Under the pieces are notes generated by a model that was not told the DNA's origin, searched no databases, and was given only the letters and a program-made list of their open reading frames with translations. A DNA stretch of 64,000 bases, taken from the NCBI GenBank assembly GCA_045632925.1, contig JAZQXP010000067.1, positions 2,209 to 66,208 on the forward strand. Reading direction: 5' to 3'. Origin of the DNA: Eubacteriales bacterium (lineage in GTDB: Bacteria; Bacillota; Clostridia; Oscillospirales; CAG-272). A program made the translations under genes and the position numbers. Shown here piece by piece: positions 1 to 62,078 of the stretch. Positions within the stretch are counted from its first letter, which is position 1. Each line of letters opens with the position of its first letter.

Positions 1-114
1 AACAAGGGTCTGCGCTACCGCATTTTCGGCGCAATACAGCGTGGCGAGATCGACGGCTTCAAGCCGATCTCGAAGATGCAGGGAATGAAATCGTATGATG
101 AATCCGAAGAATAA
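1..114 (+). CDS. 3' end of an upstream gene (last 37 codons ...GFKPISKMQGMKSYDESEE*); product not identifiable
   Basis: Frame 1 is open from the window edge to TAA at 112-114. The stop abuts the RBS of the next gene. Confidence 0.4.
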   Translation, partial: NKGLRYRIFGAIQRGEIDGFKPISKMQGMKSYDESEE

Positions 115-127
115 AGGAGTTTTTGAT

Positions 128-1141
128 ATGGAAAGAATCAGAACCGGCGCCGCTTACCACGGCAACCGAATACTGCACCACGTCGCGGACGATATGGCAG
201 AAATGGCTCGTCAGAATATGGACGTTGTCGTTCATATGTTCTCGCACAACGACTGGGACCGCCACCTCGGCGTGATGAACGAGATCTGCAAGATCTCGGA
301 GTATAACGGGCTCGAGGTCTGGATCGACAACTGGGGCATCGGAGGCCCTCCCGGCGACAAATCGCACTTTCTGCAGTACCATCCCGAGGCACATCAGGTC
401 TACTCGGACGGCTCGATCGATCCCGTTTCCGCCTGCTACAACGCACCCGCATTCATAGGTTTCACAAAGAACTGGATCGAGGCTGTCGCATCCTTCGGAG
501 GCAAGAAGATCTTCTGGGACGAGCCCCACTTCAAGCAGAAGGGCGAGCTCTTCTCCTGCTGCTGCCCGACCTGCCGGAAGCTCTTTGAGGAAAAATACGG
601 TCATCCTATGCCTACCGAAATGACCGACGAGATGCGCGAGTTCAGAATTGATTCTCTCCTCCGCTACTTTGACACCGTCTGCTCCTACGCGGCATCTATG
701 GGCATCGAGAACAGCGTTTGCGTTATGCTCCACACCCTCGATTACGCGAAGAAGATCATGACTATCCCTACCCTTAATGACTTCGGAATCGACCCCTACT
801 GGCATCCCAAGAGCGGCAAGCGCGATCCTTACGAGTACGTTTACAAGTCCTCGAAGCAAATCATCGAGGAGACAAGCGCGATCGGAAAACAGAACCACAT
901 CTGGATCCAGAGCTACGACATCCCGCGCGGACGTGAGGACGAGATCATCGTTGCCGCCGACGCTGCTTACGACGCGGGTGCACGCACACTCATTTCCTGG
1001 GCATTCCGCGGAAGCGAGTCGAATACGTACAAGAGCGAATGCTGCGAGCGCGCCTGGGCCGCCACCTGCGAGGCGTTCAGACGAGTACGCTCCAGACATT
1101 TCGATGCGATCCGAGAGGCGAATTTTAAGAAGTTTAATTAA
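128..1141 (+). CDS. hypothetical cytoplasmic protein (possibly sugar-active TIM-barrel-like); function unknown
   Basis: ORF 95..1141. AAAGGAG at 113-119 favours ATG 128 (MERIRTG...). Host-like codon usage and no signal peptide. Confidence 0.6.
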   Translation: MERIRTGAAYHGNRILHHVADDMAEMARQNMDVVVHMFSHNDWDRHLGVMNEICKISEYNGLEVWIDNWGIGGPPGDKSHFLQYHPEAHQVYSDGSIDPVSACYNAPAFIGFTKNWIEAVASFGGKKIFWDEPHFKQKGELFSCCCPTCRKLFEEKYGHPMPTEMTDEMREFRIDSLLRYFDTVCSYAASMGIENSVCVMLHTLDYAKKIMTIPTLNDFGIDPYWHPKSGKRDPYEYVYKSSKQIIEETSAIGKQNHIWIQSYDIPRGREDEIIVAADAAYDAGARTLISWAFRGSESNTYKSECCERAWAATCEAFRRVRSRHFDAIREANFKKFN

Positions 1142-1149
1142 TTTCGGAT

Positions 1150-1383
1150 ATGAAAACGAATAAATGCAAGTGTTGGCAACATGAAACGACCGGCACTGAC
1201 GGCAATACCGAATTATTCGGAGTAAACATTTTTGATTACGCTTGGCATGACACGAGAGAAAAAGCTTTTGTGAATGAAAAAGAAATCACCATTTATTCGG
1301 TAATTATCAATAACGAAAAACGCTTGTTTGCCGCAAAAGAAGTCAGCAATTGCGTTTGGGAGTTTTATATTTACAAATATTAA
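1150..1383 (+). CDS. small hypothetical protein (77 aa), AT-rich
   Basis: Only an ORF. Weak RBS and composition unlike the neighbours. Confidence 0.3.
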   Translation: MKTNKCKCWQHETTGTDGNTELFGVNIFDYAWHDTREKAFVNEKEITIYSVIINNEKRLFAAKEVSNCVWEFYIYKY

Positions 1384-1412
1384 TATCTGTCTTGAGAATC
1401 AATGCACCTTGA

Positions 1413-1908
1413 TCGCACTCACCAAATGAGGTGCAGGGGCGAAGCCCCATAGATGGAAACTTAAGCCTTGCCGTTTTTGCAGTACAGACTCGGTCCTCCT
1501 CATTCACCGCTGCACGCGGTCCCCTTTCCCCGCTGGGGAACGTAAAGGGTACATCGCGTATCTTTAATTTCTACAGCGAATACTATTCAACAATATAATT
1601 TTGCATAGCAAGAAGGAATATTTTATTGAAAAAGTTTGCAAAAACTCCATCACGAGTGCAAATTGATTTAATATAAATATTCCTTATTGCTTTTTATGGG
1701 TTTGATTGAATACGATATTCGTTGAATATCCGAAGAGGTTTGCAGTTACCCTTTTACGTTCCCCAGCGGGGAAAGGGGACCGCGTGCAGCGGTGAATGAG
1801 GAGAGCACCGTCTGTACTGCACGAACGATCAAAGTACCGACAACTATTAAATTCTCTTAAGTTCCCACCAATGGGGCTTCGCCACTGCACCCCGATTAGC
1901 GAGTGCGA
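1413..1908. repeat. 496-bp imperfect palindrome (foldback element); arms about 150 nt, AT-rich centre near 1648
   Basis: 1413-1560 is the reverse complement of 1745-1908, with a near-identical core (about 1498-1551 vs 1747-1802) and one indel block. Inner pairs such as AAGGAATATTT/AAATATTCCTT (1613-1625 / 1672-1684) continue toward the centre. Confidence 0.8.
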
Positions 1909-1951
1909 ACACAGTGTTCTTATAATTAAGATGATTATTTTTTGATTTCTA

Positions 1952-1980
1952 TTGACTTTTTCTCAAAAATATAGTAAAAT
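1952..1980 (+). promoter_or_regulatory. sigma70-like promoter TTGACT-17-TAAAAT
   Basis: -35 at 1952-1957 and -10 at 1975-1980. The predicted TSS near 1987 coincides with the 5' strand of the long stem. Confidence 0.55.
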
Positions 1981-1986
1981 ACAAGA

Positions 1987-2194
1987 GCCAAACTAATTCA
2001 ATAACCAACATTCAGCCCAAGGTATAACTGTACCTTTTTTAGGCATAAAATAACTCAGTTGCGTTTGACAAAACGCAGACTTCTTCCTGAGTTATTTATA
2101 TGCTACGCGCTGTGGGTAATTATTGGATTAGTTTGGCGACTATCGAAGTCTGTGTTTTTGTGCGGCGGCTTCGGTCGTCGCACTTTTGTTTTTT
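1987..2194 (+). ncRNA. candidate structured RNA (leader/riboswitch-like, or an sRNA) ending in an intrinsic terminator
   Basis: An 18-bp closing stem (1987-2004 / 2120-2137, one G-U) encloses hairpins at 2019-2036 and 2049-2096 (inner 2060-2077). A UUCG-capped terminator follows at 2160-2183 with a U-tract to 2194. I recognise no known riboswitch class. Confidence 0.35.
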
Positions 2195-2206
2195 GGAGAA
2201 AATAAT

Positions 2207-2548
2207 ATGAACGGAAAAGCGGCTTCAAATAGTTTTACTTACGGAATATACGCCGACACGCAATACGTACCCATTCCAATGCGCGAGAAGCTCGGCGAAG
2301 AATTCATAAAGGAAGCCTTTGACGTCTCAAAGCTTTACCGGGCGGAGATCAGCGTCGATCGACTCAAATATAAGATCCGCGTCAGCTTTTCTTTCAACTT
2401 TGACACTCCTATGAAAAATGTCAGCTGCCTTTTCGGGATGGCTGACTCAATATCCTTTTCCAAAGGAAACTGCGACTATGACCTCACAGCGAGCCTCGAT
2501 TTCTATACCCACGTCGTTGTAAAAAGAGGTATGTCTATAGCACCATAA
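2207..2548 (+). CDS. hypothetical protein (113 aa)
   Basis: ORF 2186..2548. GGAGAA RBS at 2194-2199 favours ATG 2207. Lies downstream of the structured leader. Confidence 0.5.
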   Translation: MNGKAASNSFTYGIYADTQYVPIPMREKLGEEFIKEAFDVSKLYRAEISVDRLKYKIRVSFSFNFDTPMKNVSCLFGMADSISFSKGNCDYDLTASLDFYTHVVVKRGMSIAP

Positions 2549-2577
2549 AAGGGACTGATTCACTCAGTCCCTTTTAT
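2547..2577. terminator. bidirectional intrinsic terminator
   Basis: AAAGGGACTGA-TTCAC-TCAGTCCCTTT flanked by A/T runs, between convergent genes. Confidence 0.7.
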
Positions 2578-2578
2578 A

Positions 2579-3586
2579 TTAAAGAAGTAAAATTCCGTTA
2601 TTTTTGCAGATCTCAACGTCATCCGCGGGCCAGCAGGATGCCTGGACCTCGCCGATATGCGCCTTGCGAAGGAAGAACATACACATTCTCGACTGACCGA
2701 TACCGCCGCCGATCGTCAGCGGAAGCTTGCCCTCGAGCAGGTCGCGGTGATAAGGAAGCTTTGCGCGGTCGGTAAAGCCCGAGATATCAAGCTGACGGCG
2801 AAGCGACTCGGCGTCAACTCTGATACCCATACTCGAAAGCTCAAGAGCCATATCGAGGACGGGGTAATAAACGATGATGTCGCCGTTGAGCTCCCAATCG
2901 TCGTAGTCGGGTGCGCGGCCGTCGTGCGGCTTGCCCGAGATCGGCATTGCGCCTCCGATCTTCGAGATGAATACGGCACCGTACTCCTTTGCCGCGCGGT
3001 ATTCGCGCTCCTTGGCAGTCAGAGTCGGATATTTAGCCTCAAGCTCGAAGGAGGAAACGAACGTGATCTCCTCGGGGAGCAGATGACCGATGAAGTTATA
3101 GTCGTCGGCTATGTAATTCTCGGTCTGACGGAGAGCGTCGTAGATATAGCGGACGGTGCGCTGAAGGTATTCCTCGGTGCGCTCCGTGGGGCGGATGATC
3201 TTCTCCCAGTCCCACTGATCGACGAAAACGCTGTGGATATTATCGGTCTCCTCGTCGCGTCGGATAGCGTTCATATCGGTATAAAGTCCCTCGCCTGGAG
3301 CAAAGCCGTACTTCTTGAGCGCGACTCTCTTCCACTTTGCAAGCGACTGCACGATCTCAAACTCGCCCGCCGAATATCCCATATCAAATGCTACGGGACG
3401 TTCGCGTCCGCTGAGGTTATCGTTCAGACCCGACGCAGCGTCAACGAAAAGCGGAGCCGAAACACGGCGCAGATTGAGCTGATTTGCAAGATTGGACTGA
3501 AAGAAATCCTTGATCTTCTTGATCGCTATTTGCGTTTGTCTTGCTGTCAGATGCGAGGAATAACCCTCGGGAATCATAATAGGCAT
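2579..3586 (-). CDS. asnA: aspartate--ammonia ligase (asparagine synthetase A)
   Basis: Full-length colinearity with AsnA motifs ([22 protein letters not shown]). GAGGTG RBS favours ATG 3586 over the GTG at 3595. Confidence 0.93.
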
Positions 3587-3652
3587 CAACTGCACCTCAT
3601 TTCACTAAATAATAATCAATTATAGCACAAATACGCGCGCTTGTCAAGATAT

Positions 3653-4435
3653 TTATATATCCGCAAGCATATAGGGCTTGAGCTGACCGTTTGTCTCCGC
3701 GGCAACTGCGCCGAAGACCTTGACGGATTCGCTGAGTTCCTCCATCGTTCCGATGGTCCAGATACCGATATTGCCGTACTTACGGACCTCTTCGCAGAAT
3801 TCGGGATCGGCAAATCTACCCTTGAACCAAGCGGTCGACTTGTTCTGATAGGGAATCCAATACGTAACTCTGCCCTCGGCAACCGCACGGGTGTGCTCGA
3901 GAGCTTCTTTTGTCATAAGACCGTCGTAGTGCATATGTGCCTCGGGGAACTTCCTTGCAAGCCAATCGAAATAAGGAAGGGTCTTGCATGTAAAACCGAT
4001 CTTCGCGCCCATATCGGCGGCTTTTACCGTCTCGCAGAAGATCTCAAACTGCTCCTCGCTGAAGCTTTGGAAGACGTTGTCGAGCTTGACGTCAACGCCC
4101 GTGGGCTTGAGTGCTTCAAGAGTCTCGGCAAGCGTGGGAATTCTAACTCCGCGGAACTGCTCGCCCTTGAAAAGTCCCGCGTCGAGAGCCTTGATCTCGG
4201 CAAGAGTCAGCGCGGTAGACGCGATCTTTTCCTCGAATGATGTGCCGTCATCGCGGCGGCAGGTGCGGTTTATCGTGCCGTCATGCAGCATGATACAGAC
4301 GTTGTCCTTGGTGAACTTGCAGTCCATCTCGACGATCTTGTATCCCTGCTCAACTGCGGCAAGGTATGAAACCAGAGTATTCTCGGGATATGAAACGCTG
4401 TCGCCCCTGTGGGCTTGGAACTTGAATTCGGACAT
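3653..4435 (-). CDS. glycerophosphodiester phosphodiesterase family protein
   Basis: N-terminal FQAHRGDS..PENT and EMDCKFTKD..MLHD motifs. GGAGGT RBS before ATG 4435. The longer ORF up to 4864 has no support. Confidence 0.8.
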   Translation of the reverse strand: MSEFKFQAHRGDSVSYPENTLVSYLAAVEQGYKIVEMDCKFTKDNVCIMLHDGTINRTCRRDDGTSFEEKIASTALTLAEIKALDAGLFKGEQFRGVRIPTLAETLEALKPTGVDVKLDNVFQSFSEEQFEIFCETVKAADMGAKIGFTCKTLPYFDWLARKFPEAHMHYDGLMTKEALEHTRAVAEGRVTYWIPYQNKSTAWFKGRFADPEFCEEVRKYGNIGIWTIGTMEELSESVKVFGAVAAETNGQLKPYMLADI

Positions 4436-4552
4436 GGTAGTACCTCCAAAACAATATATTAAGATTATACAATCATTCGGAGGAAAAGTCAAGATAAAAG
4501 ATTGAAAAGAGTCCGAATATGTGGTATAATAAAACAAAAACGCAGGTGACAT

Positions 4553-5812
4553 ATGAAAAGATATCTTGCATTTATTCTTGCTGTCGCAATGCTCCTTCCC
4601 CTCATCGCCTCTTGCGGACCGAAAAGACTTGATGAGCCCGTGGAGCTTATTATTGCCAACGACATTCATTACATATCCCCCGAGATCAACGGGTATCGTG
4701 TCGAGGACGTCAGCGGCGTTCAATACCATATGCCCTCGGACGGCAAGCTCGTCAACTACATAGTCGAGATCACCGACGCATTCATCGCAGAGGTCATCGA
4801 AAGGAAGCCGAAGGCATTGATCCTCGCAGGCGACCTTACAATGGACGGCGCCGTGGTCAGCCACCGTGAGCTTGTCTCAAAGCTCACTGCCGTCAAGGAT
4901 GCGGGAATCGACCTTCTGATCATTCCCGGGAACCACGATGTGGACGGCACGGCTGTCGATTATTCGGAAGAGGTCATCAAAGCCACCGAGGCGGCTGATT
5001 CTGCAAAATACATCGAGCTTTACGAGCCGCTGATGCCCGAAACCGTCAGCCGTGACAGCGTTTCGATGAGCTATATCTATCAAGCCTCCGAAAAGCTCCG
5101 CATCCTTATGCTCGACACGAACACGTACGGAAAGTGCTACGTCAAGGACGAAACGCTCAAATGGATCGAGGAAGAGCTTAAAGCCGCGCAGGACAAGGGT
5201 ATCAGCGTCTTCGCCGTCAGCCACCAGAACCTCTACGCGCACAACGACCTTCTTTCCTTCCAATACGAGCTCTACAATTCAAAAAAGCTCCTTGATCTTT
5301 ACGAAAAATATTCGGTAAAGTGCAATTTCAGCGCACATATCCATATTCAAAGCATCCTTGACGACAATACCGTTCCCGAGGTCTCAACGTCATCTATGGC
5401 GATCACGGGCTCTCACTACGGGGAGATCGTATATGACGGCAGAGAGATACGCTATGCGGCCAAATCGGTCGACGTCGCATCCTATGCCGAAAGCATCGGA
5501 AGCACAGATGAAAATCTGCTGAATTTTGCAAGCTACGCGACGGCTCATTTTGAAGAAACAGCTCGCAGGCAATGCAAAAATGAAATCACAAATTCAATAT
5601 TTCCCGACGGAGTTATCGATCTTATGGCAGAGACCTACGCCAAGATAAACTCGGTGTATTTCGAGGGAAAGCCCATCGATGTATCGGAATACAGCGAGGG
5701 GCTTGAGCAATGGGAGCTCTATATTGAAGAATCCTTTATCGCAAAATATATTATGTCAATGCTCAAAAAAACCGATGGCGGCGGACTTGAGATCACTATA
5801 AAAATTGACTGA
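4553..5812 (+). CDS. metallophosphoesterase lipoprotein
   Basis: Lipobox LIASC. Calcineurin-like motifs NDIHY, GDLTMDG, GNHD and SHQN. Confidence 0.8.
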   Translation: MKRYLAFILAVAMLLPLIASCGPKRLDEPVELIIANDIHYISPEINGYRVEDVSGVQYHMPSDGKLVNYIVEITDAFIAEVIERKPKALILAGDLTMDGAVVSHRELVSKLTAVKDAGIDLLIIPGNHDVDGTAVDYSEEVIKATEAADSAKYIELYEPLMPETVSRDSVSMSYIYQASEKLRILMLDTNTYGKCYVKDETLKWIEEELKAAQDKGISVFAVSHQNLYAHNDLLSFQYELYNSKKLLDLYEKYSVKCNFSAHIHIQSILDDNTVPEVSTSSMAITGSHYGEIVYDGREIRYAAKSVDVASYAESIGSTDENLLNFASYATAHFEETARRQCKNEITNSIFPDGVIDLMAETYAKINSVYFEGKPIDVSEYSEGLEQWELYIEESFIAKYIMSMLKKTDGGGLEITIKID

Positions 5813-5815
5813 ATA

Positions 5816-5852
5816 AAATATCAGCCGCATCTTGCGATGCGGCTGATATTTT
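5816..5852. terminator. bidirectional intrinsic terminator
   Basis: AAAATATCAGCCGCATC-TTGC-GATGCGGCTGATATTTT. Confidence 0.8.
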
Positions 5853-8691
5853 ATTGATAATCGAAAACAACGGTTATTCCCTCGCTCGATCCGGCAACCT
5901 TGACCGAAGGATCAAAGATATAGAGTGTTTTCGTCTCTTCGTCAAATCGGCATCCCTCGCATTCGTACTCAAGATGATCGTAATAAGGAACCCAATATCC
6001 CTCCTCGATCTCAAGAGTCAGGCATTCCTCCCAGACAATACCGAAGACGACCTCGGCATCGGGCATGATATAAAGCTCGCCGTCAAGCAGAGCTTCGCCC
6101 TCGAGAAGGACCCATCCCGTGCTAGCCTTGCCCGCAACACAGTAAACTCTGTCGCCGAGCGAGAAAACTGAACCGAAATCAAGATAGCTTGTTCCGATCG
6201 TCTCGCCGCTTGCGATATCGATAAAGCTTATGCTGTGCGCATTCGGCACAAAGCTTCCGCGTAGGATAACGTCGCCCTCGGGCATTATGAATTCGCCCGA
6301 CGAAATATCAATATCGTCGCCGTTCCAGCCCGTGAAGGTGTATCCGTTCTTGGTCGGAGTAAGGCTGAGATTGACCTTCTGTCCCGCTCTGACACCGATG
6401 GTGCCGTAGGGCTTGCCGTCGATGATGAAGATGATGCGGTTGTCACCGTCCGAGAACGCGCCGAAAACGTCAACGTCGTGCGCAGGCATATTGAAGTATC
6501 CCGAAAGGATATTTGCGCCCGCAGAGCTCCAGGCGAAGCTGCAGCCATCCATCTCCTCATCGGGACGTAGAATAACCTTCTCGCCGTAACCGTAGGCGTC
6601 GCTATAAAGCAGGATTCCGTCAAGGTAATAATTTACCTTATAGCTGCATCGCTCGAAAGAGCCGATGAAAATAACGTCGTTATCGGGGATAGCGATTATT
6701 CCTCCCGATGCGTCGAGAGCGGTATCCTGAATCCTCCAACCGGTGAATTCGTATCCGGGTCTGACCTCGATACCGCGGACGGTATAGATCTCGCCGAAGA
6801 GAACGCTGTCTGTATAGACGTTCACGCCGTCAAGGATATAGTTTACGGTATGCGGCTTCGGTGTCGATTCCGCGCTGAAACGGATGTCAGCCTCGGGCAT
6901 AATAAAGGAGGAGGACTCCAAGCCCGCGATATCGGTCGTGACCCAACCGCTGACGGTATGTCCATGCTTCTCTGCGGGTGCCGCAAGAGTCACAAGGCTT
7001 CCGACCTCGGCGCGGACCCTTGAGATCACCTCGCCGTCGAGGATATAGATGACCTCTGCGTCTCTGATCTCCGACTTGACGTAAAGATCGTGCGCGGGCA
7101 TGATCTCGGGAAGCCCAAGCCAGCCTGAAAAGATCTTGCCCTTTGCTTCATCGGGTCTTTCGGGAGCCGTCAGAGGGGTGCCCTCATAGTGAGGAACGCT
7201 GAGCCAAAGCTCATCGTTGATATAAAAATAGACGTAATAAACAGGCTTATCTGTGGTATAGACCGCTGTGTAGGATGCGTCCGCGGTAAATGTCGGCGCA
7301 ACCTCTCTGTCCCAGCCGACAAACTTGTACACAACATCGCCGAAGGTAAGCGCGGTGGTCTCGGGAGGCGCGGGCGGCAGAATAGGATCGCCGTAATGAC
7401 CCGTCAGGATCACGTCGGACGATCCGTTCGGGAAAAAGCCGATCTCGGTATCGAAGACGACTGTATAGACCTTCAACGCACCCGGGATATACTCAGCCTT
7501 GAAGGACACGTCCTCGCTGACGGTGTACTCATATCCGCCGTTGTATAGGTGTCCATTATGATCGCGCCAGCCGACGAAATTGTAATATCTGACCTCGTCC
7601 TCGTGTCTCGGCTCGATCGGTAATACGAGCTTTCCATCGGTCGCAACGTGCGACTGAGTCGGAGCGTTTCCGTCGTCGTGGTCAAAGGTAACTGTATATT
7701 TCAGAACCTCGCAATCCCAGATAAGCTCGAGAGCCAATTCTCTGCCCTCGCGGGTCACTCGGATCTCCTTGAATCTGTAGCGCGCGTTGTCAAGATAAAC
7801 ATCTGCGGGTTTATAGCTCGAATACGACTCAAGTACCGCCTCGACCTCGGCTTTTGTACCGCTTATAAGCTTCGATTTTCCTCCGCCGATCAGCTCACCG
7901 TATTCGGTATGGATCAGGAGCGAATATTCGATCATTTCCTTGCCGTAAAGTGCGGTAAACTCCAGAGGCTGCTTTCCGACGGTTATCGGGAATTCAACCA
8001 TATTCGTTCCGTCAAGCGAAAAACCGATCAGCGGATATCTAAAGTCGCTGTCCTCCGCCTTTTCGGGCATTCGAGCCAGAAGCTCCGCGGGATCTATCAG
8101 CTCTCCCGCCTTAAAGTAAAACTCGGTAACAGTACCCTCGCGGAAAGCTCCCTCTCCCGCCCCGAAGGAAACGAGATAGCTGTATTCAACCACGGGATAG
8201 ATATGTAATCCTTCGTCGGTTACGGCAGGCGGATCGGAAACGTCATAAACCTTTCTCTCGCCGTCATTGCCGACGGAATATTCCCATCCCTTGAACTCGA
8301 CCTTAACGGTTTTGCTGTCCGATGGCAGGGAAATCGCTTCAAGCGCAGAGCTTGGCAACGTCTTTCCAACCTCAACGGGATAAGCTATGGATTTTCCGTC
8401 AAGCTCATAAACGTAAACAAGAACCTCCGCGGGCTTTGGTTCAACCGTGGTTTCGGGAGCGGGAGGCTCGGTCGTCTCCTCCTCTGTTATCTCCGAAGTA
8501 GTCTCTTCGGGGATGATTTCGGTTGTCACTTCGGGTGCCGACGTCGTGATCTCGGTAACGGGATCGGTCACGGCGTCTGTCGTCACCTCGCCTTCCCCGC
8601 GGTTACATCCCGCAAAGCAGAGGCAGAAACAAAGCAGGCACAATATGACAAAAACGGGGTATTTACTTCTTCGGGCGACATATCTTTCCAT
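5851..8691 (-). CDS. large surface lipoprotein with InlB B-repeat (Listeria/Bacteroides repeat) domains
   Basis: Lipobox FAGC and a T/E/P-rich linker. At least 8 repeats have the Y.F.GW signature (FKGWEY, FVGWRD, FVGWDR, FSGWLG, VSGWVT, FTGWRI, FTGWNG, STGWVL). AAGGAGGA RBS. Confidence 0.8.
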   Translation of the reverse strand: MERYVARRSKYPVFVILCLLCFCLCFAGCNRGEGEVTTDAVTDPVTEITTSAPEVTTEIIPEETTSEITEEETTEPPAPETTVEPKPAEVLVYVYELDGKSIAYPVEVGKTLPSSALEAISLPSDSKTVKVEFKGWEYSVGNDGERKVYDVSDPPAVTDEGLHIYPVVEYSYLVSFGAGEGAFREGTVTEFYFKAGELIDPAELLARMPEKAEDSDFRYPLIGFSLDGTNMVEFPITVGKQPLEFTALYGKEMIEYSLLIHTEYGELIGGGKSKLISGTKAEVEAVLESYSSYKPADVYLDNARYRFKEIRVTREGRELALELIWDCEVLKYTVTFDHDDGNAPTQSHVATDGKLVLPIEPRHEDEVRYYNFVGWRDHNGHLYNGGYEYTVSEDVSFKAEYIPGALKVYTVVFDTEIGFFPNGSSDVILTGHYGDPILPPAPPETTALTFGDVVYKFVGWDREVAPTFTADASYTAVYTTDKPVYYVYFYINDELWLSVPHYEGTPLTAPERPDEAKGKIFSGWLGLPEIMPAHDLYVKSEIRDAEVIYILDGEVISRVRAEVGSLVTLAAPAEKHGHTVSGWVTTDIAGLESSSFIMPEADIRFSAESTPKPHTVNYILDGVNVYTDSVLFGEIYTVRGIEVRPGYEFTGWRIQDTALDASGGIIAIPDNDVIFIGSFERCSYKVNYYLDGILLYSDAYGYGEKVILRPDEEMDGCSFAWSSAGANILSGYFNMPAHDVDVFGAFSDGDNRIIFIIDGKPYGTIGVRAGQKVNLSLTPTKNGYTFTGWNGDDIDISSGEFIMPEGDVILRGSFVPNAHSISFIDIASGETIGTSYLDFGSVFSLGDRVYCVAGKASTGWVLLEGEALLDGELYIMPDAEVVFGIVWEECLTLEIEEGYWVPYYDHLEYECEGCRFDEETKTLYIFDPSVKVAGSSEGITVVFDYQ

Positions 8692-15427: not shown

Positions 15428-15785
15428 GCATCTTTTTTGGAGGCGCCACTCCTTCATCGGATCGGGCTCGGCGTTTCAATCGAAATCGGGCGCACTTCTC
15501 TTCACTTTCTCATCCGATAATATCGGGAATCTCAATGTAGCCGAATCCGGTCCGCATTCGCCTCTCGGAGATCGACAATCTCGCTTGCCAGGCGGAGAGC
15601 GAGCGAATATTCGCGCGACGCGCGAAATTCCGGGAATTTGGCTAAACTATTGCAAACTGCCCCAAAGTGTGTAATAATAACCTCAGGAAGGCGGAAAAAA
15701 ATTAAAACCTTCTTCTCTTATTTGTATTTTTCATCATTATTTCTTGTTGCTCTTGCACAGCTACACACGAATTTTTCTTTTCCTC

Positions 15786-15814
15786 TTGACTTTTCTTCCC
15801 TTTTATGCTATAAT
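15786..15814 (+). promoter_or_regulatory. promoter TTGACT-17-TATAAT for the second tRNA-Gly
   Basis: Hexamers at 15786-15791 and 15809-15814. Confidence 0.75.
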
Positions 15815-15826
15815 ATTAATGTTAAT

Positions 15827-15902
15827 GCGGATTTAGCTCATTTGGTAGAGCGCAACCTTGCCAAGGTTGAGGTGGCGGGTTCGATCCCCGTAATCCGCTC
15901 CA
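15827..15902 (+). tRNA. tRNA-Gly (GCC), copy 2
   Basis: 76/76 identical to 13784-13859. Confidence 0.9.
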
Positions 15903-15939: not shown

Positions 15940-15943
15940 CAGC

Positions 15944-16115
15944 TAAATCCGTCCTTGCGGACGGGGTAAATCCCACTATCGTGGGATGAAATCACTTCGT
16001 GATGAAATCCGACTTTGTCGGGAAAAAAGGACGGATTTAATTTCATCTGAGGCGGAACGCCCAAGATTTCATCCGAGCCGTGCGAGGATTTCATCGCGCC
16101 TCTCGCGATTTCATT
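15944..16115. repeat. array of GATTTCATC motifs interleaved with short hairpins
   Basis: Two inverted copies (GATGAAATC at 15985, 16001) then four direct copies (16039, 16065, 16087, 16107), spaced 16-26 nt apart. Small GC hairpins lie between them. Confidence 0.7.
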
Positions 16116-25886: not shown

Positions 25887-25935
25887 TAATAACGAGAAAT
25901 ATGTTTCATTATTGATTAAATTATATTACGAGCCT

Positions 25936-26077
25936 GTAGGGAGCGACGTCCTCGGCGGTCCGAGCCCAATTAAAAATATAGCTGTGTGTTATATCAAGAA
26001 AATAGCGTTCGGTTTTCTGAATATAATCAACGCGATAATTTCGTACTGTCCGGACCGCCGAGGACGTCGGTCCCTAC
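25936..26077. repeat. 27-bp inverted repeat (one mismatch) around an 88-nt AT-rich spacer
   Basis: GTAGGGAGCGACGTCCTCGGCGGTCCG at 25936-25962 vs CGGACCGCCGAGGACGTCGGTCCCTAC at 26051-26077. Confidence 0.85.
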
Positions 26078-26258
26078 GGACTCGTACGATAATTAGGGCA
26101 ATATTATTCGTTTCATTATCGTCCCATCAAAAATACAACAAACAGTTGTGCGATAATCAAGAATCCAACAGTCAGTCGGTGGAATCCCCATCTGTTTTAT
26201 GCTAAAATATAACCATCGGGAATGTGCACAGCTCGAAATAACCATCAAGAGGTAAATA

Positions 26259-58077: not shown

Positions 58078-59199
58078 TTATGCTTCTTTGTTTTCCTCTG
58101 CGGGAGTTTCGGCAACGGAAGCTTCCTCTGCGGGAGCTTCAACTGTTGCAGGTTCCTCAACAACTGCGGGTTCCTCAACAACTGCGGGTTCCTCGACAAC
58201 TGCAGGTTCCTCGACAACTGCAGGTTCTTCGACTACCGCAGGTTCTTCGACAACCGCAGGTTCCTCGACTACTGCAGGTTCTTCAACAACCACAGGCTCT
58301 TCGACAACCACGGGTTCCTCAACTACTGTGGGAGCGGGAGCGGGCTTAGGCTCCTCGACGGGTGTGGGAGGAGTGTAAACGGGGATGGGCTCGGGCTCGG
58401 GAGCGACGGGAGGCGTGTAAACCGGCTCGGGCTCAATGGGAGTCTCGGGCTGATGGTCATATCCGCTCGGCTTGCTGAACGCGGACATATAGGTAAGTGC
58501 CGCAACGGGCTCGCCGTAGGTCGGAATTCCATACTCGGGAACGCCGGGAACGGTATTTGCGTGGTTATAGAAATTTGTTCTGGTGAGATCCATATAGGGG
58601 AAGAGCCAGATTCCGAGGAATCCGAGAGTCAGCGGGAGCAGGAGCATCCAGGGTGCGAAGGAAAGTCCCATCAGCACGTAATAATCAAAGCGTCTGCCGC
58701 GCATGATCTCACGGGAGCGTGTGATCGCCTCAAGCGCGCCCATACCGGGATTCTCTGCAATTATCCAGAGAGACTGGGAATAAGAGAACATCTTGACGAT
58801 GCCGGGGATCACGAAAAGCATAGACCAGAGACTTGTGAAAAGACCGACAAGGAAAAGAACCTTGAAAGCCGCCCAGAAACGCTTGAAGCCGCGGAAGATC
58901 TCTCTTGCGCGAACCTTTTCGCTCGGCTGCTTTGCGATCTTCTGGATCATCATTATGTAACCGATATTGAATGCTGGGAATGCGAAGAAGGAATAGAAAA
59001 GCATAATAAGCGATCCTACGCCTGCGATGATAAAGTAGGTCACTACTCCGAGCTGCTTGGGAAGGACGAAGTAAAGGACTGCGGGAAGTGCGAGCAAAGC
59101 GATCATGGCAAGCGAGAACAGCAGGCAGGCAAGGAAGAGTGTTCCTACGTTGCCGCGCAGCTGATGCTTTGCCATAAATTTAAAATGTGCTCTTGTCAT
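58078..59199 (-). CDS. DUF975-family membrane protein with C-terminal (x-V-V-E-E-P)n repeat tail
   Basis: DUF975-like N-terminus and TM topology. Pro-rich linker followed by 10-11 hexapeptide repeats. Confidence 0.75.
   Translation of the reverse strand: MTRAHFKFMAKHQLRGNVGTLFLACLLFSLAMIALLALPAVLYFVLPKQLGVVTYFIIAGVGSLIMLFYSFFAFPAFNIGYIMMIQKIAKQPSEKVRAREIFRGFKRFWAAFKVLFLVGLFTSLWSMLFVIPGIVKMFSYSQSLWIIAENPGMGALEAITRSREIMRGRRFDYYVLMGLSFAPWMLLLPLTLGFLGIWLFPYMDLTRTNFYNHANTVPGVPEYGIPTYGEPVAALTYMSAFSKPSGYDHQPETPIEPEPVYTPPVAPEPEPIPVYTPPTPVEEPKPAPAPTVVEEPVVVEEPVVVEEPAVVEEPAVVEEPAVVEEPAVVEEPAVVEEPAVVEEPAVVEEPATVEAPAEEASVAETPAEENKEA
58133..58330. repeat. 18-bp tandem repeat x10-11 inside the CDS
   Basis: GGTTCCTC(A/G)ACAACTGC(G/A)-type units. 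Copies differ mostly at synonymous positions. Confidence 0.9.
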
Positions 59200-60586: not shown

Positions 60587-62066
60587 ACGGAAGCTTCTCG
60601 AAGGATTGGATAGAACGCTCGATAGCCTTTTTTGTCATAGGCGCGTTCGCCTTGATAACTGCAGAGATCGACATACCCGCGGAGATCGCGTCCTGAATAG
60701 CGGTCTTAAAGCCGCCCCAGCTGAGGATCTCGGCATAGTCGGAGGATACGCTTGTCGTAATAATATCAAGCATAGCCGCGGACTCCGCGTCATCAATATA
60801 TCTGCCCTTGAGACAGATATCGTAATACGCGGGTGTAACGGTCTCAACCGACTCGATAGCCATTGCCTCAACAACAAATGAAGAAACGTCAAGCTCCTTG
60901 TCCTTTGTAGTTGTCGGGAAGCATACTACAGTGCAGCAATAACCGGTAGTGTACTGATGATAGTTTTCCTGATCGGCAGTGTACTTGGGCATCGGGATGA
61001 TACCGAAGTTCAGATCGTAGTTCTGACGCATAGTCTGCGCGTGCTGAAGGACCTCAGCCCAGAAGAGGGACTGACCGTTTCCGAAGAGGTCTCTGATATC
61101 CTGGTCAGCACCGAGATAGATGCCGTCGTTGTCGGCAACCTTTTCGGTAAGATATGTAACAACGTCAATGAAGCGCGCGTTATCCGCCGCAACAAGCTCG
61201 GGGATATCGTCCGCATTCTTCTGTGTAAGCATTTCGCCCGAGCCCATCGTCATCATAAAGCCGAAGGTAACCTGTGCGGATGCGCCGAAGGTATCCGCAA
61301 GAGAAACGACACCGTCGCCGTCGTCCTTCTTTGCAGCCTCAACGTACTCGAAGAACTTTTCGTATACCCATTCGTTATCGTTGACAAGATCATAGATCGT
61401 CTTAAGCTGAAGATTCTCGATCATATCCTTGTTGAAGAACATGGTACGGATTGCGCGGTCGTCAACGGTCGTGATCGCACCGGTGGCAAAATACTGTCTG
61501 TTACCGATCGACCAAGCCTTGTTCGAGGACTGTGTCCACCACTGACCTCCAAGATTGATGTTCTGCATATCGGTCATATCCTGAAGATAGCCCGACTGAG
61601 AAGCATATGCGGCATCGGCAAGTCCCATATAGAGGACCTGATAGGAGGTATCTCCCGAGGAGATACGGTTTCCTACGTCGTTGCGGAAGGTGAGGTTTCC
61701 GCTGGCGATCTCATCAAACTGAACGCCGTACTTTTCGGTAATGACCGCGTTTCTGTTATAAATAGCATCGTTGAGAACGGTACCGTCGATATCGTCAACG
61801 AAAAGGTCGCTCTCCCAAGTGCCGTTATAAAGACGGCTGAAGAAGGTTACGGTCTCGCCGTTCAGATCACGGAGACCGAGAATGTTTTCCGCGTTGACGG
61901 CGGTAGTCTCGTCAGCAACTGTTGTGGCGGGAGCTTCAACGGTGGGATCGGTGACTGTGGGAGGCTCGGTCTGCTGATCGGTTGTAGTCTCTGCGCAAGC
62001 AACCGCAGAGACGAGCATCAGAACAAGCAGAAGTGCCGAAACGATCCTGATAAGAGTCTTTTTCAT
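60585..62066 (-). CDS. ABC-transporter-type extracellular solute-binding lipoprotein (carbohydrate class), paralog A
   Basis: Lipobox AVAC and T/E/P linker. About 60% identical by eye to the neighbouring gene. Confidence 0.75.
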   Translation of the reverse strand: MKKTLIRIVSALLLVLMLVSAVACAETTTDQQTEPPTVTDPTVEAPATTVADETTAVNAENILGLRDLNGETVTFFSRLYNGTWESDLFVDDIDGTVLNDAIYNRNAVITEKYGVQFDEIASGNLTFRNDVGNRISSGDTSYQVLYMGLADAAYASQSGYLQDMTDMQNINLGGQWWTQSSNKAWSIGNRQYFATGAITTVDDRAIRTMFFNKDMIENLQLKTIYDLVNDNEWVYEKFFEYVEAAKKDDGDGVVSLADTFGASAQVTFGFMMTMGSGEMLTQKNADDIPELVAADNARFIDVVTYLTEKVADNDGIYLGADQDIRDLFGNGQSLFWAEVLQHAQTMRQNYDLNFGIIPMPKYTADQENYHQYTTGYCCTVVCFPTTTKDKELDVSSFVVEAMAIESVETVTPAYYDICLKGRYIDDAESAAMLDIITTSVSSDYAEILSWGGFKTAIQDAISAGMSISAVIKANAPMTKKAIERSIQSFEKLP

Positions 62067-62078
62067 TTTTATTTTTCT

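What the first reader, a model, noticed from the sequence alone, without database searches (positions are those of the whole stretch)
1952..2206. Promoter, multi-stem RNA and terminator unit upstream of a small ORF: riboswitch-like leader or stand-alone sRNA of no class I recognise
A TTGACT-17-TAAAAT promoter (1952-1980) predicts a TSS near 1987. That is exactly where an 18-bp stem begins (GCCAAACTAATTCAATAA 1987-2004, pairing with 2120-2137 through one G-U). The stem closes a junction with at least two further helices: 2019-2036, and a 10-bp stem 2049-2058/2087-2096 capped by the 2060-2077 hairpin. Twenty-two nt later comes a strong UUCG-loop intrinsic terminator (2160-2183 with a U-tract to 2194). 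The GGAG RBS and ATG 2207 of a 113-aa ORF of unknown function follow immediately. This promoter/aptamer-like fold/terminator/RBS layout is the classic arrangement of a transcription-attenuating riboswitch. I cannot match the sequence to T-box, purine, SAM, TPP, FMN, c-di-GMP or other familiar motifs. Alternatively, the 18-bp terminal pairing could be the TIRs of yet another small foldback element.
Basis: seen in the sequence. Interest (0 to 1): 0.55.

Follow-up and report, generated by a model that had tools for sequence, protein, structure and literature searches.

The report
Uncatalogued structured leader RNA family
The flagged stretch is a real folded RNA of about 200 nucleotides with its own promoter and stop signal; it matches no family in Rfam 15, and I found more than 100 relatives in gut Clostridia and a few of their phages, each sitting just upstream of a different accessory gene.

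Summary
Window 1952-2206 carries a sigma-A-type promoter, a strongly folding RNA (MFE -82 kcal/mol, z = -8), a 10-bp UUCG terminator, then the RBS and ATG of a 113-aa ORF.

It is not a chance fold or a MITE. I collected 96 homologues (95 distinct) from MAGs, gut and rumen metagenomes and nine IMG/VR viral contigs, plus one divergent copy. Across them, 90% of pair cells are standard pairs (about 40% in slid controls), and 47 of 69 pairs show compensatory changes.

The apical loop and 3' strand of the long hairpin (2070-2083) pair with the tail just before the terminator (2145-2158). This 14-15-bp long-range helix is 99% paired and covaries. It competes with a local apical hairpin that also covaries.

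No Rfam 15 family matches. Downstream genes are heterogeneous: the window's hypervariable small protein, lipoproteins, LRR surface proteins, methylase-like proteins. In phages the RNA leads a lipoprotein cassette ahead of terS and terL.

Best reading: a new, gene-agnostic, terminator-containing leader RNA class with a bistable fold. A classic metabolite riboswitch is unlikely. The mechanism is inferred, not shown.

The parts
1952..1980 (+). Sigma-A-type promoter: -35 TTGACT at 1952-1957, 17-nt spacer, -10 TAAAAT at 1975-1980. The predicted start is at or near G1987.
   Evidence: The same geometry (TTG -35, 17 nt, often TGn-extended -10, 6-7 nt to GCCAAA) occurs in 89 of 91 distinct homologous upstream regions, although the spacers differ. 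The start site is inferred.
1987..2194 (+). The whole RNA: about 200 nt if terminated in the T tract, or the 5' leader of the ORF mRNA if read through.
   Evidence: MFE -82 kcal/mol, z = -8.0. Covariance model R1 scores 194 bits on the + strand and 32 bits on the - strand. 96 homologues were collected.
1987..2004 (+). P1 5' strand. It pairs with 2120-2137 (18 bp, one G-U) and starts at the predicted 5' end.
   Evidence: In A7 the lower 11 bp are 100% paired, with U-A<->C-G and C-G<->U-A swaps in about half of the sequences. The divergent copy L127 has GUCACAC/GUGUGAC at this position.
2120..2137 (+). P1 3' strand.
2008..2016 (+). P2, the junction-proximal extension of P1: 2008-2009 with 2116-2117 and 2013-2016 with 2109-2112. 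It is weak in the window and longer in many relatives.
   Evidence: The helix varies in sequence and length but shows compensatory changes in all counted pairs; 66-75% of cells are paired (helices 3-4).
2019..2036 (+). P3 hairpin (AAGGUAU / GUACCUU, loop AACU), followed by a U run at 2037-2042.
   Evidence: 76% of cells are paired, and all 7 pairs show compensatory change in A7 (helix 5). A U run of 4-7 follows in 86 of 88 sequences.
2042..2104 (+). P4 long hairpin. Lower stems are 2042-2058 with 2087-2104. The apical hairpin of the window type is 2059-2066 with 2071-2078.
   Evidence: The lower stem is the most variable part in sequence; 90% of cells are paired and 12 of 12 pairs show compensatory change (helix 7).
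2070..2083 (+). Apex strand (AAAACGCAGACUUC). It pairs over a long range with the tail at 2145-2158.
   Evidence: Read from the sequence. Predicted duplex energy is -22.9 kcal/mol. In A7 the 15-bp equivalent is 99.3% paired, with A-U<->G-C in 23 sequences and C-G<->U-A in 19 (helix 9). A-run and U-run lengths covary.
2138..2159 (+). Conserved 3' tail. It holds the P5 mini-hairpin (2138-2141 with 2147-2150) or, alternatively, the 3' strand of the long-range helix (2145-2158). It ends in a U run immediately before the terminator.
2160..2194 (+). Intrinsic terminator: 10-bp stem 2160-2169 with 2174-2183, UUCG loop, U tract to 2194.
   Evidence: It is present in 95 of 96 homologues. 98.8% of cells are paired and 8 of 10 pairs show compensatory change (helix 10).
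2196..2548 (+). RBS (GGAG, 2196-2199) and a 113-aa ORF (ATG 2207, stop ending at 2548). The protein is a hypervariable small protein of unknown function.
   Evidence: The AF2 model has pLDDT 80 and no significant PDB match. No Pfam, PHROGs, PADLOC or NCBIfam hit.
2545..2577 (.). Perfect 14-bp hairpin that closes the cassette. It is a likely bidirectional terminator shared with the convergent asnA.
   Evidence: I5. asnA at 2579-3595(-) matches Pfam AsnA at 9e-103.

Best explanation
Window 1987-2194 is one member of an RNA family absent from Rfam 15. The family is a structured leader RNA of about 200 nt found in gut and rumen Clostridia and a few of their phages.

Architecture. Each copy is a self-contained cassette in this order:
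- A canonical sigma-A promoter.
- An RNA that starts at the first base of a long closing helix (P1/P2).
- A three-way junction carrying a short hairpin with a U run (P3) and a long variable hairpin (P4).
- A conserved tail.
- A strong intrinsic terminator.
- Usually, 16-35 nt further on, the RBS and start codon of an accessory gene.

The fold is bistable. The apical loop and 3' strand of P4 pair with one of two partners. One is their local partner (apical hairpin P4a), which leaves the tail in a 4-bp hairpin, P5. The other is the tail itself, giving a 14-15-bp pseudoknot-type helix that ends 1-2 nt before the terminator stem.

Proposed working (inferred, not shown):
- The promoter is constitutive.
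- Most transcripts stop at the terminator and give a stable RNA with both ends held in helices.
- The downstream gene has no room for a promoter of its own, so it is expressed only by read-through.
- How much read-through occurs depends on which of the two folds is present as RNA polymerase reaches the terminator. A trans-acting factor or a physical signal, rather than a pathway-specific metabolite, probably sets that balance.
- The two U runs could act as NusG-type pause sites that give time for the decision.

In this window the controlled gene is a fast-evolving 113-aa protein of unknown function.

On the confidence figure: I put about 0.95 on this being a real, conserved, structured RNA family that is not in Rfam 15. 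The 0.45 given here is for the whole statement, including regulated read-through controlled by the bistable fold.
For: Shown here:
1. The fold is real and conserved. z = -8. In 17 sequences, 85% of cells are paired against 35-43% in slid controls, and 26 pairs show compensatory change. In 95 distinct sequences the figures are 89.8% against 37-44%, with 47 of 69 pairs compensatory.
2. The long-range helix is supported. It is 99.3% paired over 15 bp, with two positions swapping A-U<->G-C (23 sequences) and C-G<->U-A (19 sequences). Single-sequence compensations occur in L085, L093, L104 and L115. A-run and U-run lengths follow the n / n+1 rule in 76 of 88 sequences, Spearman rho 0.78. Duplex energies of -15.6 to -22.9 kcal/mol compare with -6 to -11.6 for the two local hairpins together. 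This helix was not part of model R1, so the alignment was not fitted to it.
3. The competing local hairpin P4a is also maintained: each of its 7 core pairs is a standard pair in about 92-100% of sequences, and one position shows a G-C<->A-U swap in 11 sequences.
4. A promoter sits at a fixed distance in 89 of 91 distinct upstream regions. The terminator is present in 95 of 96 copies and covaries.
5. A same-strand ORF with an RBS starts within 60 nt of the terminator in 68 of 89 loci, and within 35 nt in 59. That leaves no space for another promoter.
6. Two diverged copies lie on one contig, each before a different gene, in L001 and L106. This fits a cis-acting element better than a single housekeeping RNA.
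7. Downstream genes are heterogeneous accessory genes. In phage contigs the RNA leads a lipoprotein or Zn-ribbon membrane gene placed just ahead of terS, terL and portal.
8. No Rfam 15 family matches at gathering or E-value thresholds.
Against: - There are no expression data. The start site, termination efficiency and read-through are all inferred.
- The conserved alternative helix does not overlap the terminator arms, so I cannot show how it would change termination. The link between fold and read-through is the weakest step.
- 21 of 89 loci have no ORF within 60 nt, and in L089 the next long ORFs downstream are convergent. The terminated RNA may therefore have a function of its own.
- The sequences were found with patterns that fixed parts of P1 and the tail. 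The apparent invariance of GCCAAA...GUUUGGCGACUAUCG is partly ascertainment, and L127 shows that P1 can differ.
- The sequences are related, so the shuffle controls overstate significance.
- The predicted lengths of P1+P2 and P4 do not correlate positively, as a simple side-by-side model would predict (rho = -0.38, MFE-based and noisy).
Confidence: 0.45

Rival explanations
1. It is a stand-alone, abundant, stable small RNA that acts in trans or binds a protein. In this reading the apex (about 15 nt, A-rich plus an anti-SD-like UUCC/CUUC) is the business end and the tail masks it. Downstream genes merely take advantage of leakage through its terminator or of a permissive insertion spot.
For: - It has a strong consensus promoter and a strong conserved terminator.
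- Both ends are buried in helices.
- 21 of 89 loci lack an adjacent ORF, and in L089 the next long ORFs are convergent.
- The conserved nucleotides lie in helices and a loop, as in protein- or RNA-binding sRNAs.
Against: - A same-strand ORF with an RBS starts within 35 nt of the terminator in 59 of 89 loci. That is hard to explain without co-transcription.
- Diverged copies on one contig each precede a gene (L001, L106).
- No trans target is identifiable.
- This rival is not exclusive of the leader model: some riboswitch leaders are known to double as sRNAs (from memory, SreA/SreB in Listeria).
Confidence: 0.22
2. It is a processive-antitermination leader, working like phage HK022 put RNA, Bacillus EAR, or the lambda PR'-6S-tR' / Q unit. 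The folded nascent RNA, alone or with a phage or host factor such as a NusG paralogue or Q-like protein, modifies RNA polymerase. The polymerase then ignores the built-in terminator and later ones.
For: - The layout is a constitutive promoter, then about 200 nt of RNA, then a strong terminator.
- In phage contigs it lies at the head of the packaging and late genes, between a primase-containing module and terS, terL and portal.
- A second terminator follows the lipoprotein gene before terS, which read-through would have to cross.
- The long-range helix is completed just as the polymerase reaches the terminator.
- Independence from downstream gene function suits a polymerase-directed mechanism.
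Against: - It resembles no Rfam family.
- No candidate factor gene is consistently adjacent.
- Most copies are chromosomal with a single short gene downstream, where processivity is hardly needed.
- Only 9 IMG/VR contigs carry it.
- Nothing here tests polymerase modification.
Confidence: 0.15
3. It is a true small-molecule or second-messenger riboswitch of a new class, for example for a global signal such as a cyclic dinucleotide or an alarmone. From memory, c-di-GMP riboswitches in Clostridia also precede surface-protein and phage genes.
For: - It has 5'-leader position, a conserved fold with a pseudoknot, and a terminator.
- Half of the distinct downstream proteins carry an N-terminal hydrophobic segment suggesting secretion or membrane insertion, and six are BspA-type LRR surface proteins.
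- Alternative pairings are evolutionarily maintained.
Against: - No conserved competition between terminator and antiterminator was found.
- The junction nucleotides are variable, whereas helices and a loop are conserved.
- A 19-25-bp closing helix and a 15-bp pseudoknot helix are atypical for aptamers.
- Gene content also includes methylase-like proteins, endonuclease-like proteins and acetyltransferases.
Confidence: 0.1
4. It is a type III toxin-antitoxin-like pair in the window's clade: the RNA is the antitoxin of the 113-146-aa protein, and the terminator sets the RNA-to-protein ratio as in ToxIN.
For: - The order promoter / RNA / terminator / small ORF is the ToxIN layout.
- The ORF is hypervariable and lies in a variable region between conserved genes.
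- Tandem RNA+ORF duplicates occur in L001.
Against: - The RNA has no tandem repeats.
- The protein has no ToxN, CptN, TenpN or PADLOC hit.
- The same RNA precedes dozens of unrelated genes.
- The protein family occurs without the RNA.
Confidence: 0.03
5. It is a MITE or small foldback mobile element whose 18-bp ends are terminal inverted repeats.
For: It has an 18-bp terminal inverted repeat. A large unrelated palindrome lies next door at 1390-1931.
Against: - There is one copy in 64 kb.
- Homologues differ by compensatory changes that keep G-U pairs on one strand only.
- The promoter, terminator and orientation towards the downstream gene are fixed.
Confidence: 0.01

Closest known systems
Transcription-terminating riboswitches and attenuator leaders of Firmicutes. 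By gene context the nearest are the c-di-GMP-I/II riboswitches of Clostridia (resemblance from memory).
   Same: - It is a 5' leader behind its own promoter.
- It has a conserved multi-helix fold with a pseudoknot.
- An intrinsic terminator lies directly before the RBS.
- Alternative pairings are maintained in evolution.
- It occurs before surface-protein genes and in phages.
   Different: - It matches no Rfam model.
- No conserved antiterminator competes with the terminator.
- The conserved positions lie in long helices, not junctions.
- The closing helix is 19-25 bp and the pseudoknot helix 15 bp.
- Downstream genes share no pathway.
- No ligand is known.
Phage leader units that gate late or early genes by antitermination: the lambda PR'-6S RNA-tR' (Q) unit, HK022 put RNA, and the Bacillus EAR element (all from memory).
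   Same: - A constitutive promoter gives a short terminated transcript of about 200 nt.
- The genes beyond it need read-through.
- In phage contigs it lies ahead of terS, terL and portal.
- RNA structure is conserved, as in put and EAR.
   Different: - It shares no sequence or structure similarity with them.
- Most copies are chromosomal and precede one short gene.
- In phages it leads a moron-like lipoprotein cassette that has its own second terminator.
- No Q, N or LoaP-like partner has been identified.
Type III toxin-antitoxin loci (ToxIN, CptIN, TenpIN).
   Same: The order is promoter, non-coding RNA, intrinsic terminator, small protein gene.
   Different: - The RNA is not a tandem repeat array.
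- The protein is not a ToxN-type nuclease.
- RNA and protein occur independently of each other.
6S RNA and retron msr-msd RNA (resemblance of shape only).
   Same: All have a long helix formed by the 5' and 3' ends, enclosing an internal loop or junction and a long variable hairpin, in an RNA of about 200 nt.
   Different: - No Rfam 6S hit.
- More than one diverged copy per contig.
- Tight coupling to downstream ORFs.
- No reverse transcriptase nearby.
- The apex:tail helix has no counterpart in 6S or retron RNAs.

Membership tests
Any Rfam 15 family | A covariance-model score at or above the family's gathering threshold. | tested here: not met
   The window scan at gathering thresholds finds only tRNAs and Gut-1 elsewhere. 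The E<=10 scan of 1100-2700 gives only noise over the element: STnc370 at 21.6 bits against 54, and L20_leader at 16.2 bits against 58.7. An E<=5 scan of 20 homologous loci gives no family recurring at the RNA apart from L20_leader at about 22 bits in two loci.
Transcription-terminating riboswitch | A conserved, covarying aptamer fold in a 5' leader upstream of a same-strand gene. | tested here: met
   (68 of 89 loci have an ORF with an RBS within 60 nt).
Transcription-terminating riboswitch | An expression platform in which an alternative pairing competes with the terminator hairpin. | tested here: not met
   The only conserved alternative pairing (apex:tail against P4a+P5) ends 1-2 nt upstream of the terminator stem. 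The upper part of the terminator stem varies freely and has no conserved partner elsewhere (helix 10).
Transcription-terminating riboswitch | Downstream genes share a pathway or function that points to a ligand. | tested here: not met
   The 66 distinct downstream proteins match 36 different Pfam families. The commonest is BspA-type LRR_5 (6 of 66), and many have no Pfam hit.
Transcription-terminating riboswitch | Specific ligand binding that changes structure or termination. | not testable with these tools
   This needs in-line probing or in vitro transcription.
Type III toxin-antitoxin (ToxIN / CptIN / TenpIN) | The antitoxin RNA is made of tandem direct repeats. | tested here: not met
   TRF finds nothing in 1380-2600 at a minimum score of 30. 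No direct repeats lie within the RNA.
Type III toxin-antitoxin (ToxIN / CptIN / TenpIN) | The toxin belongs to a ToxN / AbiQ-type endoribonuclease family and is always linked to its RNA. | tested here: not met
   No Pfam, PADLOC or NCBIfam hit. The protein family occurs without the RNA, and the RNA occurs before unrelated genes.
MITE / foldback element | Multiple dispersed, near-identical copies bounded by terminal inverted repeats, in either orientation relative to neighbouring genes. | tested here: not met
   There is a single copy in the window. Homologues diverge with compensatory changes. Orientation and distance to the promoter and the ORF are fixed. Target-site duplications were not examined.
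6S RNA | A match to the Rfam 6S models; a single housekeeping copy that mimics an open promoter. | tested here: not met
   No 6S hit even at E<=10. Two diverged copies lie on one contig in L001 and L106. RNA polymerase binding is not testable here.
Retron msr-msd RNA | An adjacent reverse-transcriptase gene. | tested here: not met
   The window region 1-6000 contains no ORF identifiable as an RT, and the called genes of related loci have no RT domain.
Processive antitermination RNAs (put, EAR) and the lambda 6S / Q unit | A cis-acting leader that makes RNA polymerase read through downstream terminators. | not testable with these tools
   Only the layout is compatible. No similarity to any Rfam model was found. 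No partner protein was identified.

The most novel reading that the evidence does not exclude
The family is a gene-agnostic, RNA-based conditional read-through module shared between phages and bacterial chromosomes. A single trans factor or signal, possibly phage-encoded or induced by infection, flips the bistable apex/tail fold. That switches on a dispersed set of horizontally acquired genes at once: surface proteins, lipoproteins, restriction-modification-like genes, the window's hypervariable small protein, and in phages the cassette ahead of the packaging genes. It would be a regulon defined by a portable leader RNA rather than by promoters or protein operators.
Probability: 0.2. Interest if true: 0.85.

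Novelty: new variant of a known kind. Interest (0 to 1): 0.66.

Why it matters
If confirmed, this adds a widespread, well-structured RNA class to gut Firmicutes and their phages. I recovered more than 100 copies with a few narrow sequence patterns, so the true number is likely much larger.

Its logic is unusual. The same promoter-RNA-terminator module is placed before functionally unrelated, fast-turning-over accessory genes. That differs from riboswitches, T-boxes and ribosomal-protein leaders.

It offers a tractable model of a covariation-supported RNA switch: a 15-bp long-range helix against a local hairpin.

It may explain how newly acquired genes and phage morons are expressed or kept silent. 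It is also a practical marker for variable gene slots in metagenomes.

Tried and rejected
- **Rfam.** A gathering-threshold scan of the whole window, and E-value scans of the region and of 20 homologous loci, gave no family. The weak L20_leader and STnc370 hits are noise.
- **tRNA- or tmRNA-like.** ARAGORN found none.
- **Tandem repeats or type III antitoxin.** None found.
- **Identity of the downstream protein.** Pfam, PADLOC, PHROGs, NCBIfam and a PDB sequence profile all returned no hit for the window's protein. Among 54 family members, one had a stray FecR_C hit and one a stray PHROG hit. The AF2 model (pLDDT 80) has no significant PDB fold match: the best is a type III secretion chaperone at E = 0.04 and TM 0.28. 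It has only weak BFVD matches to uncharacterised siphovirus proteins, at E = 3.6e-3 (TM 0.49/0.44) and E = 2.4e-2 (TM 0.55/0.66).
- **Obligate RNA-protein pair.** Rejected. The protein family has 272 representatives and occurs without the RNA.
- **'RNA more conserved than the protein'.** I suspected this at first from over-extended gene calls. It is only partly true. The RNA (73-92% nt identity) evolves at about the genomic background (housekeeping genes 84-86% nt). It is the ORF that is hypervariable (23-81% aa identity against 91-93%).
- **Conserved synteny or a housekeeping locus.** Rejected, because flanking genes differ between taxa.
- **Plasmids.** No match.
- **Isolated phage records.** Only one unverified faecal scaffold matched, and a second query found nothing.
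- **Helix-length test of a side-by-side P1/P4 model.** Inconclusive. The means are similar (24.7 and 22.3 bp) but the correlation is negative.
- **U-run lengths.** The U run after P3 and the 3'-terminal U tract do not covary positively in length with the apex A run, so I found no support for a U-A-U triplex idea.
- **Literature.** Two full-text searches and two papers on bacterial ncRNA discovery did not describe this motif. I could not check the large supplementary candidate lists of PMC8040213, so an unnamed prior listing remains possible.
Full report
**1. The observation**

- A TTGACT-17-TAAAAT promoter lies at 1952-1980.
- An 18-bp helix joins 1987-2004 to 2120-2137 with one G-U pair.
- There is a hairpin at 2019-2036.
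- A long hairpin (2042-2058 with 2087-2104) is capped by 2059-2078.
- A 10-bp terminator with a UUCG loop lies at 2160-2183 and is followed by a T tract.
- GGAG at 2196 and ATG at 2207 open a 113-aa ORF.

The RNA strand of 1985-2200 folds at -82.1 kcal/mol. Dinucleotide shuffles give -49.4 +/- 4.1, so z = -8.0. The 18-mer of the closing helix occurs only at these two places in the 64-kb window.

**2. It is conserved**

The downstream ORF has 13 close homologues. Several of their gene calls are over-extended upstream, and the extensions translate the RNA's 3' part almost identically. This led me to the DNA.

Fetching the contigs showed the whole promoter-RNA-terminator unit upstream of the ORF in L001 (twice, in tandem), L002, L003, L008, L009 and L010. 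L004-L007 carry a remnant: a truncated ORF in a different context that keeps only the 3' part of the terminator and the RBS.

An 18-mer from the tail found nine more copies in Eubacteriales and Clostridia MAGs, a Candidatus Stercoripulliclostridium MAG and an Anaerovoracaceae genome. It also gave five chance hits, about as many as expected for an 18-mer in 596 Gb.

A 17-sequence alignment (A2) supports the fold. 85% of pair cells are standard pairs against 35-43% when partners are slid, and 26 pairs show changes on both sides. I built covariance model R1 from it. In the window R1 scores 194 bits on the + strand and 32 bits on the - strand.

**3. Extending the family**

One metagenome scan fixed only GCCAAAYYAAYT, a gap of 120-150 nt, and GTTTGGCGACTATCG. 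It returned 86 loci. R1 hit every one I searched, most at 94-195 bits. The exceptions were four copies cut off by a contig end (51-80 bits) and L070 (65 bits), which lacks the terminator.

IMG/VR gave nine viral contigs, scoring 110-141 bits. A second pattern, independent of P1, found no further contigs.

An unverified faecal phage scaffold (MT835503.1) carries a more divergent copy at 80.7 bits. Its P1 reads GUCACAC/GUGUGAC instead of GCCAAAC/GUUUGGC. This shows two things. The family reaches beyond my search patterns. The apparent invariance of P1 and of GGCGACUAUCG in my sets is partly ascertainment.

The combined alignment A7 has 96 sequences, 95 of them distinct. 89.8% of cells are paired (37-44% when slid) and 47 of 69 pairs have compensatory changes.

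Two caveats apply. The sequences are related, so the shuffle statistics are not probabilities. A7 was also fitted to R1's nested structure.

**4.

In the metagenome set the tail reads GGAGUUUGCGUUUUU, not the window type's GAAGUCUGYGUUUU. The apex of P4 changes in step, from AAAAYGCAGAYUUC to AAAAAUGCAAAUUCC.

Written as a pseudoknot on A7, this 15-bp helix is 99.3% paired.
- One position swaps A-U to G-C in 23 sequences, and another swaps C-G to U-A in 19 (helix 9).
- Individual sequences add further compensations: L085 (GCAAACUCC), L093 (GCAGAUUC: GAAUCUGC), L104 (GCAAGCUUC: GAAGUUUGC) and L115 (GUGAAUUCC: GGAGUUCGC).
- The length of the apical A run tracks the length of the tail U run. 76 of 88 sequences follow an n / n+1 rule, with Spearman rho 0.78.

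This helix was not in model R1, so the alignment was not fitted to it.

In the window it is 2070-2083 with 2145-2158: 14 bp including one G-U. Its predicted duplex energy is -22.9 kcal/mol, against -11.6 for the two local hairpins it replaces.

The same apical 3' strand can pair locally instead. That gives apical hairpin P4a, with 7 core pairs that are each a standard pair in about 92-100% of sequences and a G-C to A-U swap in 11 sequences. The tail then forms a 4-bp hairpin, P5, which is 98.9% paired.

Both states are therefore maintained in evolution, and the element is bistable. The window type has lost the usual local partner and uses a different apical hairpin (2059-2066 with 2071-2078). 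It also strengthens the long-range helix with a C-G pair in place of U-G.

**5. Context**

- *Promoter.* 89 of 91 distinct upstream regions have a -10 hexamer at a fixed distance from the G that begins P1, usually with TGn, and 79 have a TTG -35. The spacers differ, so the promoter is selected for function.
- *Terminator.* It is present in 95 of 96 copies and covaries.
- *Downstream ORF.* In 68 of 89 loci with enough sequence, a same-strand ORF with an RBS starts within 60 nt of the terminator, and in 59 within 35 nt. That leaves no room for another promoter.
- *Gene content.* It is strikingly heterogeneous.
  - Only the window's clade (15 loci here) carries the small-protein family.
  - Elsewhere there are BspA-type LRR proteins, DUF6591 lipoproteins, hexapeptide acetyltransferases, Zn-ribbon membrane proteins, an AMP-binding enzyme, CHAP and trypsin-like proteins, and an HTH_17 protein. 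Proteins of about 760-785 aa with NPPY-type methylase-like motifs (read from the translations) also occur, and many proteins have no annotation.
  - In L127 the downstream gene is a 382-aa ORF with an NPPF methylase-like motif, followed by a 369-aa ORF ending in an HNH-like motif (both read by eye, not tested).
  - Half of the 66 distinct downstream proteins have an N-terminal hydrophobic segment, and 15 have a lipobox-like motif.
- *Flanking synteny.* It is not conserved between taxa.
- *Copy number.* Two diverged copies can lie on one contig (L001, L106).
- *Phage contigs.* The RNA sits between a primase-containing module and the packaging genes. It leads a lipoprotein or Zn-ribbon membrane gene with its own second terminator, followed by terS, terL and portal.

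**6. The window's own cassette**

The window's genome and those of L001-L003 are congeneric. Housekeeping neighbours (a 337-348-aa protein and AsnA) are 84-86% identical in DNA and 91-93% in protein. Against that background the RNA is 73-92% identical, while the small ORF is only 23-81% identical in protein.

So the ORF, not the RNA, is the outlier. It is hypervariable and is evidently exchanged. L020 has an RNA 95.6% identical to the window's, yet carries the ORF type of L017.

The protein family is larger than it first looked: 272 representatives, typically about 144 aa, whereas the window copy lacks the N-terminal KLIYEAKYP part. The family also occurs without the RNA. It has no Pfam, PHROGs, PADLOC or NCBIfam assignment and no significant fold match in the PDB. 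It has only weak matches to uncharacterised gut siphovirus proteins.

**7. Interpretation**

*Shown.* This is a conserved, strand-specific, structured RNA with its own promoter and terminator. It has a three-way-junction fold and a covarying long-range helix that competes with a local hairpin. It is placed as a 5' leader before unrelated accessory genes in Clostridia and some phages, and it is absent from Rfam 15.

*Inferred.* The promoter is constitutive, and most transcripts end at the terminator to give a stable RNA of about 200 nt. The downstream gene depends on read-through, and the bistable apex/tail sets how much read-through occurs. The U runs after P3 and before the terminator fit the T-rich NusG-dependent pause motif described for Firmicutes (general knowledge; see PMC11602163, listed). 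This is conjecture.

*Weak link.* The alternative helix abuts the terminator stem but does not overlap it. I therefore cannot show how it would alter termination. Steric or coaxial effects at the RNA exit channel, or recognition by a factor, are possible but untested.

*Why I favour a factor or general signal.* Gene content is function-agnostic, and the conserved positions lie in helices. I therefore favour control by a trans factor or general signal over a pathway metabolite. A stand-alone sRNA role for the terminated product remains a serious and non-exclusive rival, because 21 of 89 loci lack an adjacent ORF.

*Rejected readings.* Type III toxin-antitoxin, MITE, 6S and retron readings each fail at least one defining feature.

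**8. Novelty**

The kind of element, a terminator-containing structured leader, is known. This class, its 15-bp apex:tail switch and its gene-agnostic use as a portable cassette shared with phages are not in Rfam 15. I did not find them in the papers I could search. An unnamed entry in large candidate lists cannot be excluded.

Noticed in passing
window 1390-1931: Immediately upstream of the promoter lies a 542-nt imperfect palindrome. The inner arms, 1472-1549 and 1750-1827, are 90% complementary. The outer arms, 1390-1465 and 1856-1931, are 75% complementary. They flank a 200-nt AT-rich centre with a promoter-like site at 1570-1599. As a single strand it folds at -285.6 kcal/mol (z = -23.8), and it drew spurious plant-miRNA Rfam hits. 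A motif like that of the outer right arm (GGGGCTTCGCC.CTGCACCCC...GCGAGTGCGAACACAG) also lies upstream of the RNA in L002, L008, L009 and L010, where no left arm was seen. The window may therefore carry an inverted duplication or an insertion. An invertible-promoter switch was considered but no recombinase gene is nearby.
   Followed up: partly
window 15940-16013 (+): There is a Gut-1 RNA (RF01706) hit at 50.1 bits, just at the gathering score of 50. It lies about 40 nt downstream of a tRNA at 15827-15899.
   Followed up: no
window 15779-15820 (+) and 4458-4499 (-): Two promoter-like stretches (CTCTTGACTTTTC...TATAAT) resemble the RNA's promoter. One lies just upstream of the tRNA at 15827. 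The RNA therefore appears to use the organism's strong housekeeping-type promoter.
   Followed up: no
window 25910-26103: Another foldback: 53-nt arms, 83% complementary, separated by 88 nt, GC-rich inside. It is unrelated in sequence to the finding.
   Followed up: no
window 58110-58332 and 60942-63027: There is an array of ten 18-nt tandem units, probably a coding repeat. Nearby are two stretches (231 and 300 nt) that recur about 1.5 kb downstream at 75-78% identity, which suggests a diverged tandem duplication.
   Followed up: no
L004-L007 (e.g. L004 4950-5261): This is a decayed copy of the cassette in a different context, between Exo_endo_phos and Peptidase_M23 genes. Only the 3' part of the terminator, the RBS and an ORF with a 27-aa internal deletion (86 aa) remain. 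It was seen on at least 24 contigs.
   Followed up: partly
L001 4858-5504 and 5620-6320: Two RNA+ORF cassettes lie in tandem. The RNAs differ in identity to the window's RNA (77% and 86%), and both ORFs are strongly diverged. The second ORF has lost the family's C-terminal YTHVVV...AP motif.
   Followed up: partly
L016 777-3068, L041 4726-7014, L067 3978-6332; L127 575-2829: In several loci the RNA leads proteins with DNA-methylase-like motifs (FYTP, NPPY or NPPF), read by eye from the translations. They have no Pfam or NCBIfam hit. In L127 the next ORF ends in an HNH-like motif. These are possibly defence genes under the same leader.
   Followed up: no
L102 1410-1526 (-); L071 1490-1563 (-): In two metagenome contigs the RNA lies about 335 nt downstream of a tmRNA gene and about 225 nt downstream of a tRNA gene, on the same strand. 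Across loci this is not consistent.
   Followed up: no
window vs L020 2239-2486 and L017: L020's RNA is 95.6% identical to the window's, but its ORF is identical to L017's over the 68 residues compared after the first ~10, although L017's RNA is only about 72% identical. The breakpoint lies near the start codon. This suggests that recombination exchanges cargo behind the conserved leader.
   Followed up: partly
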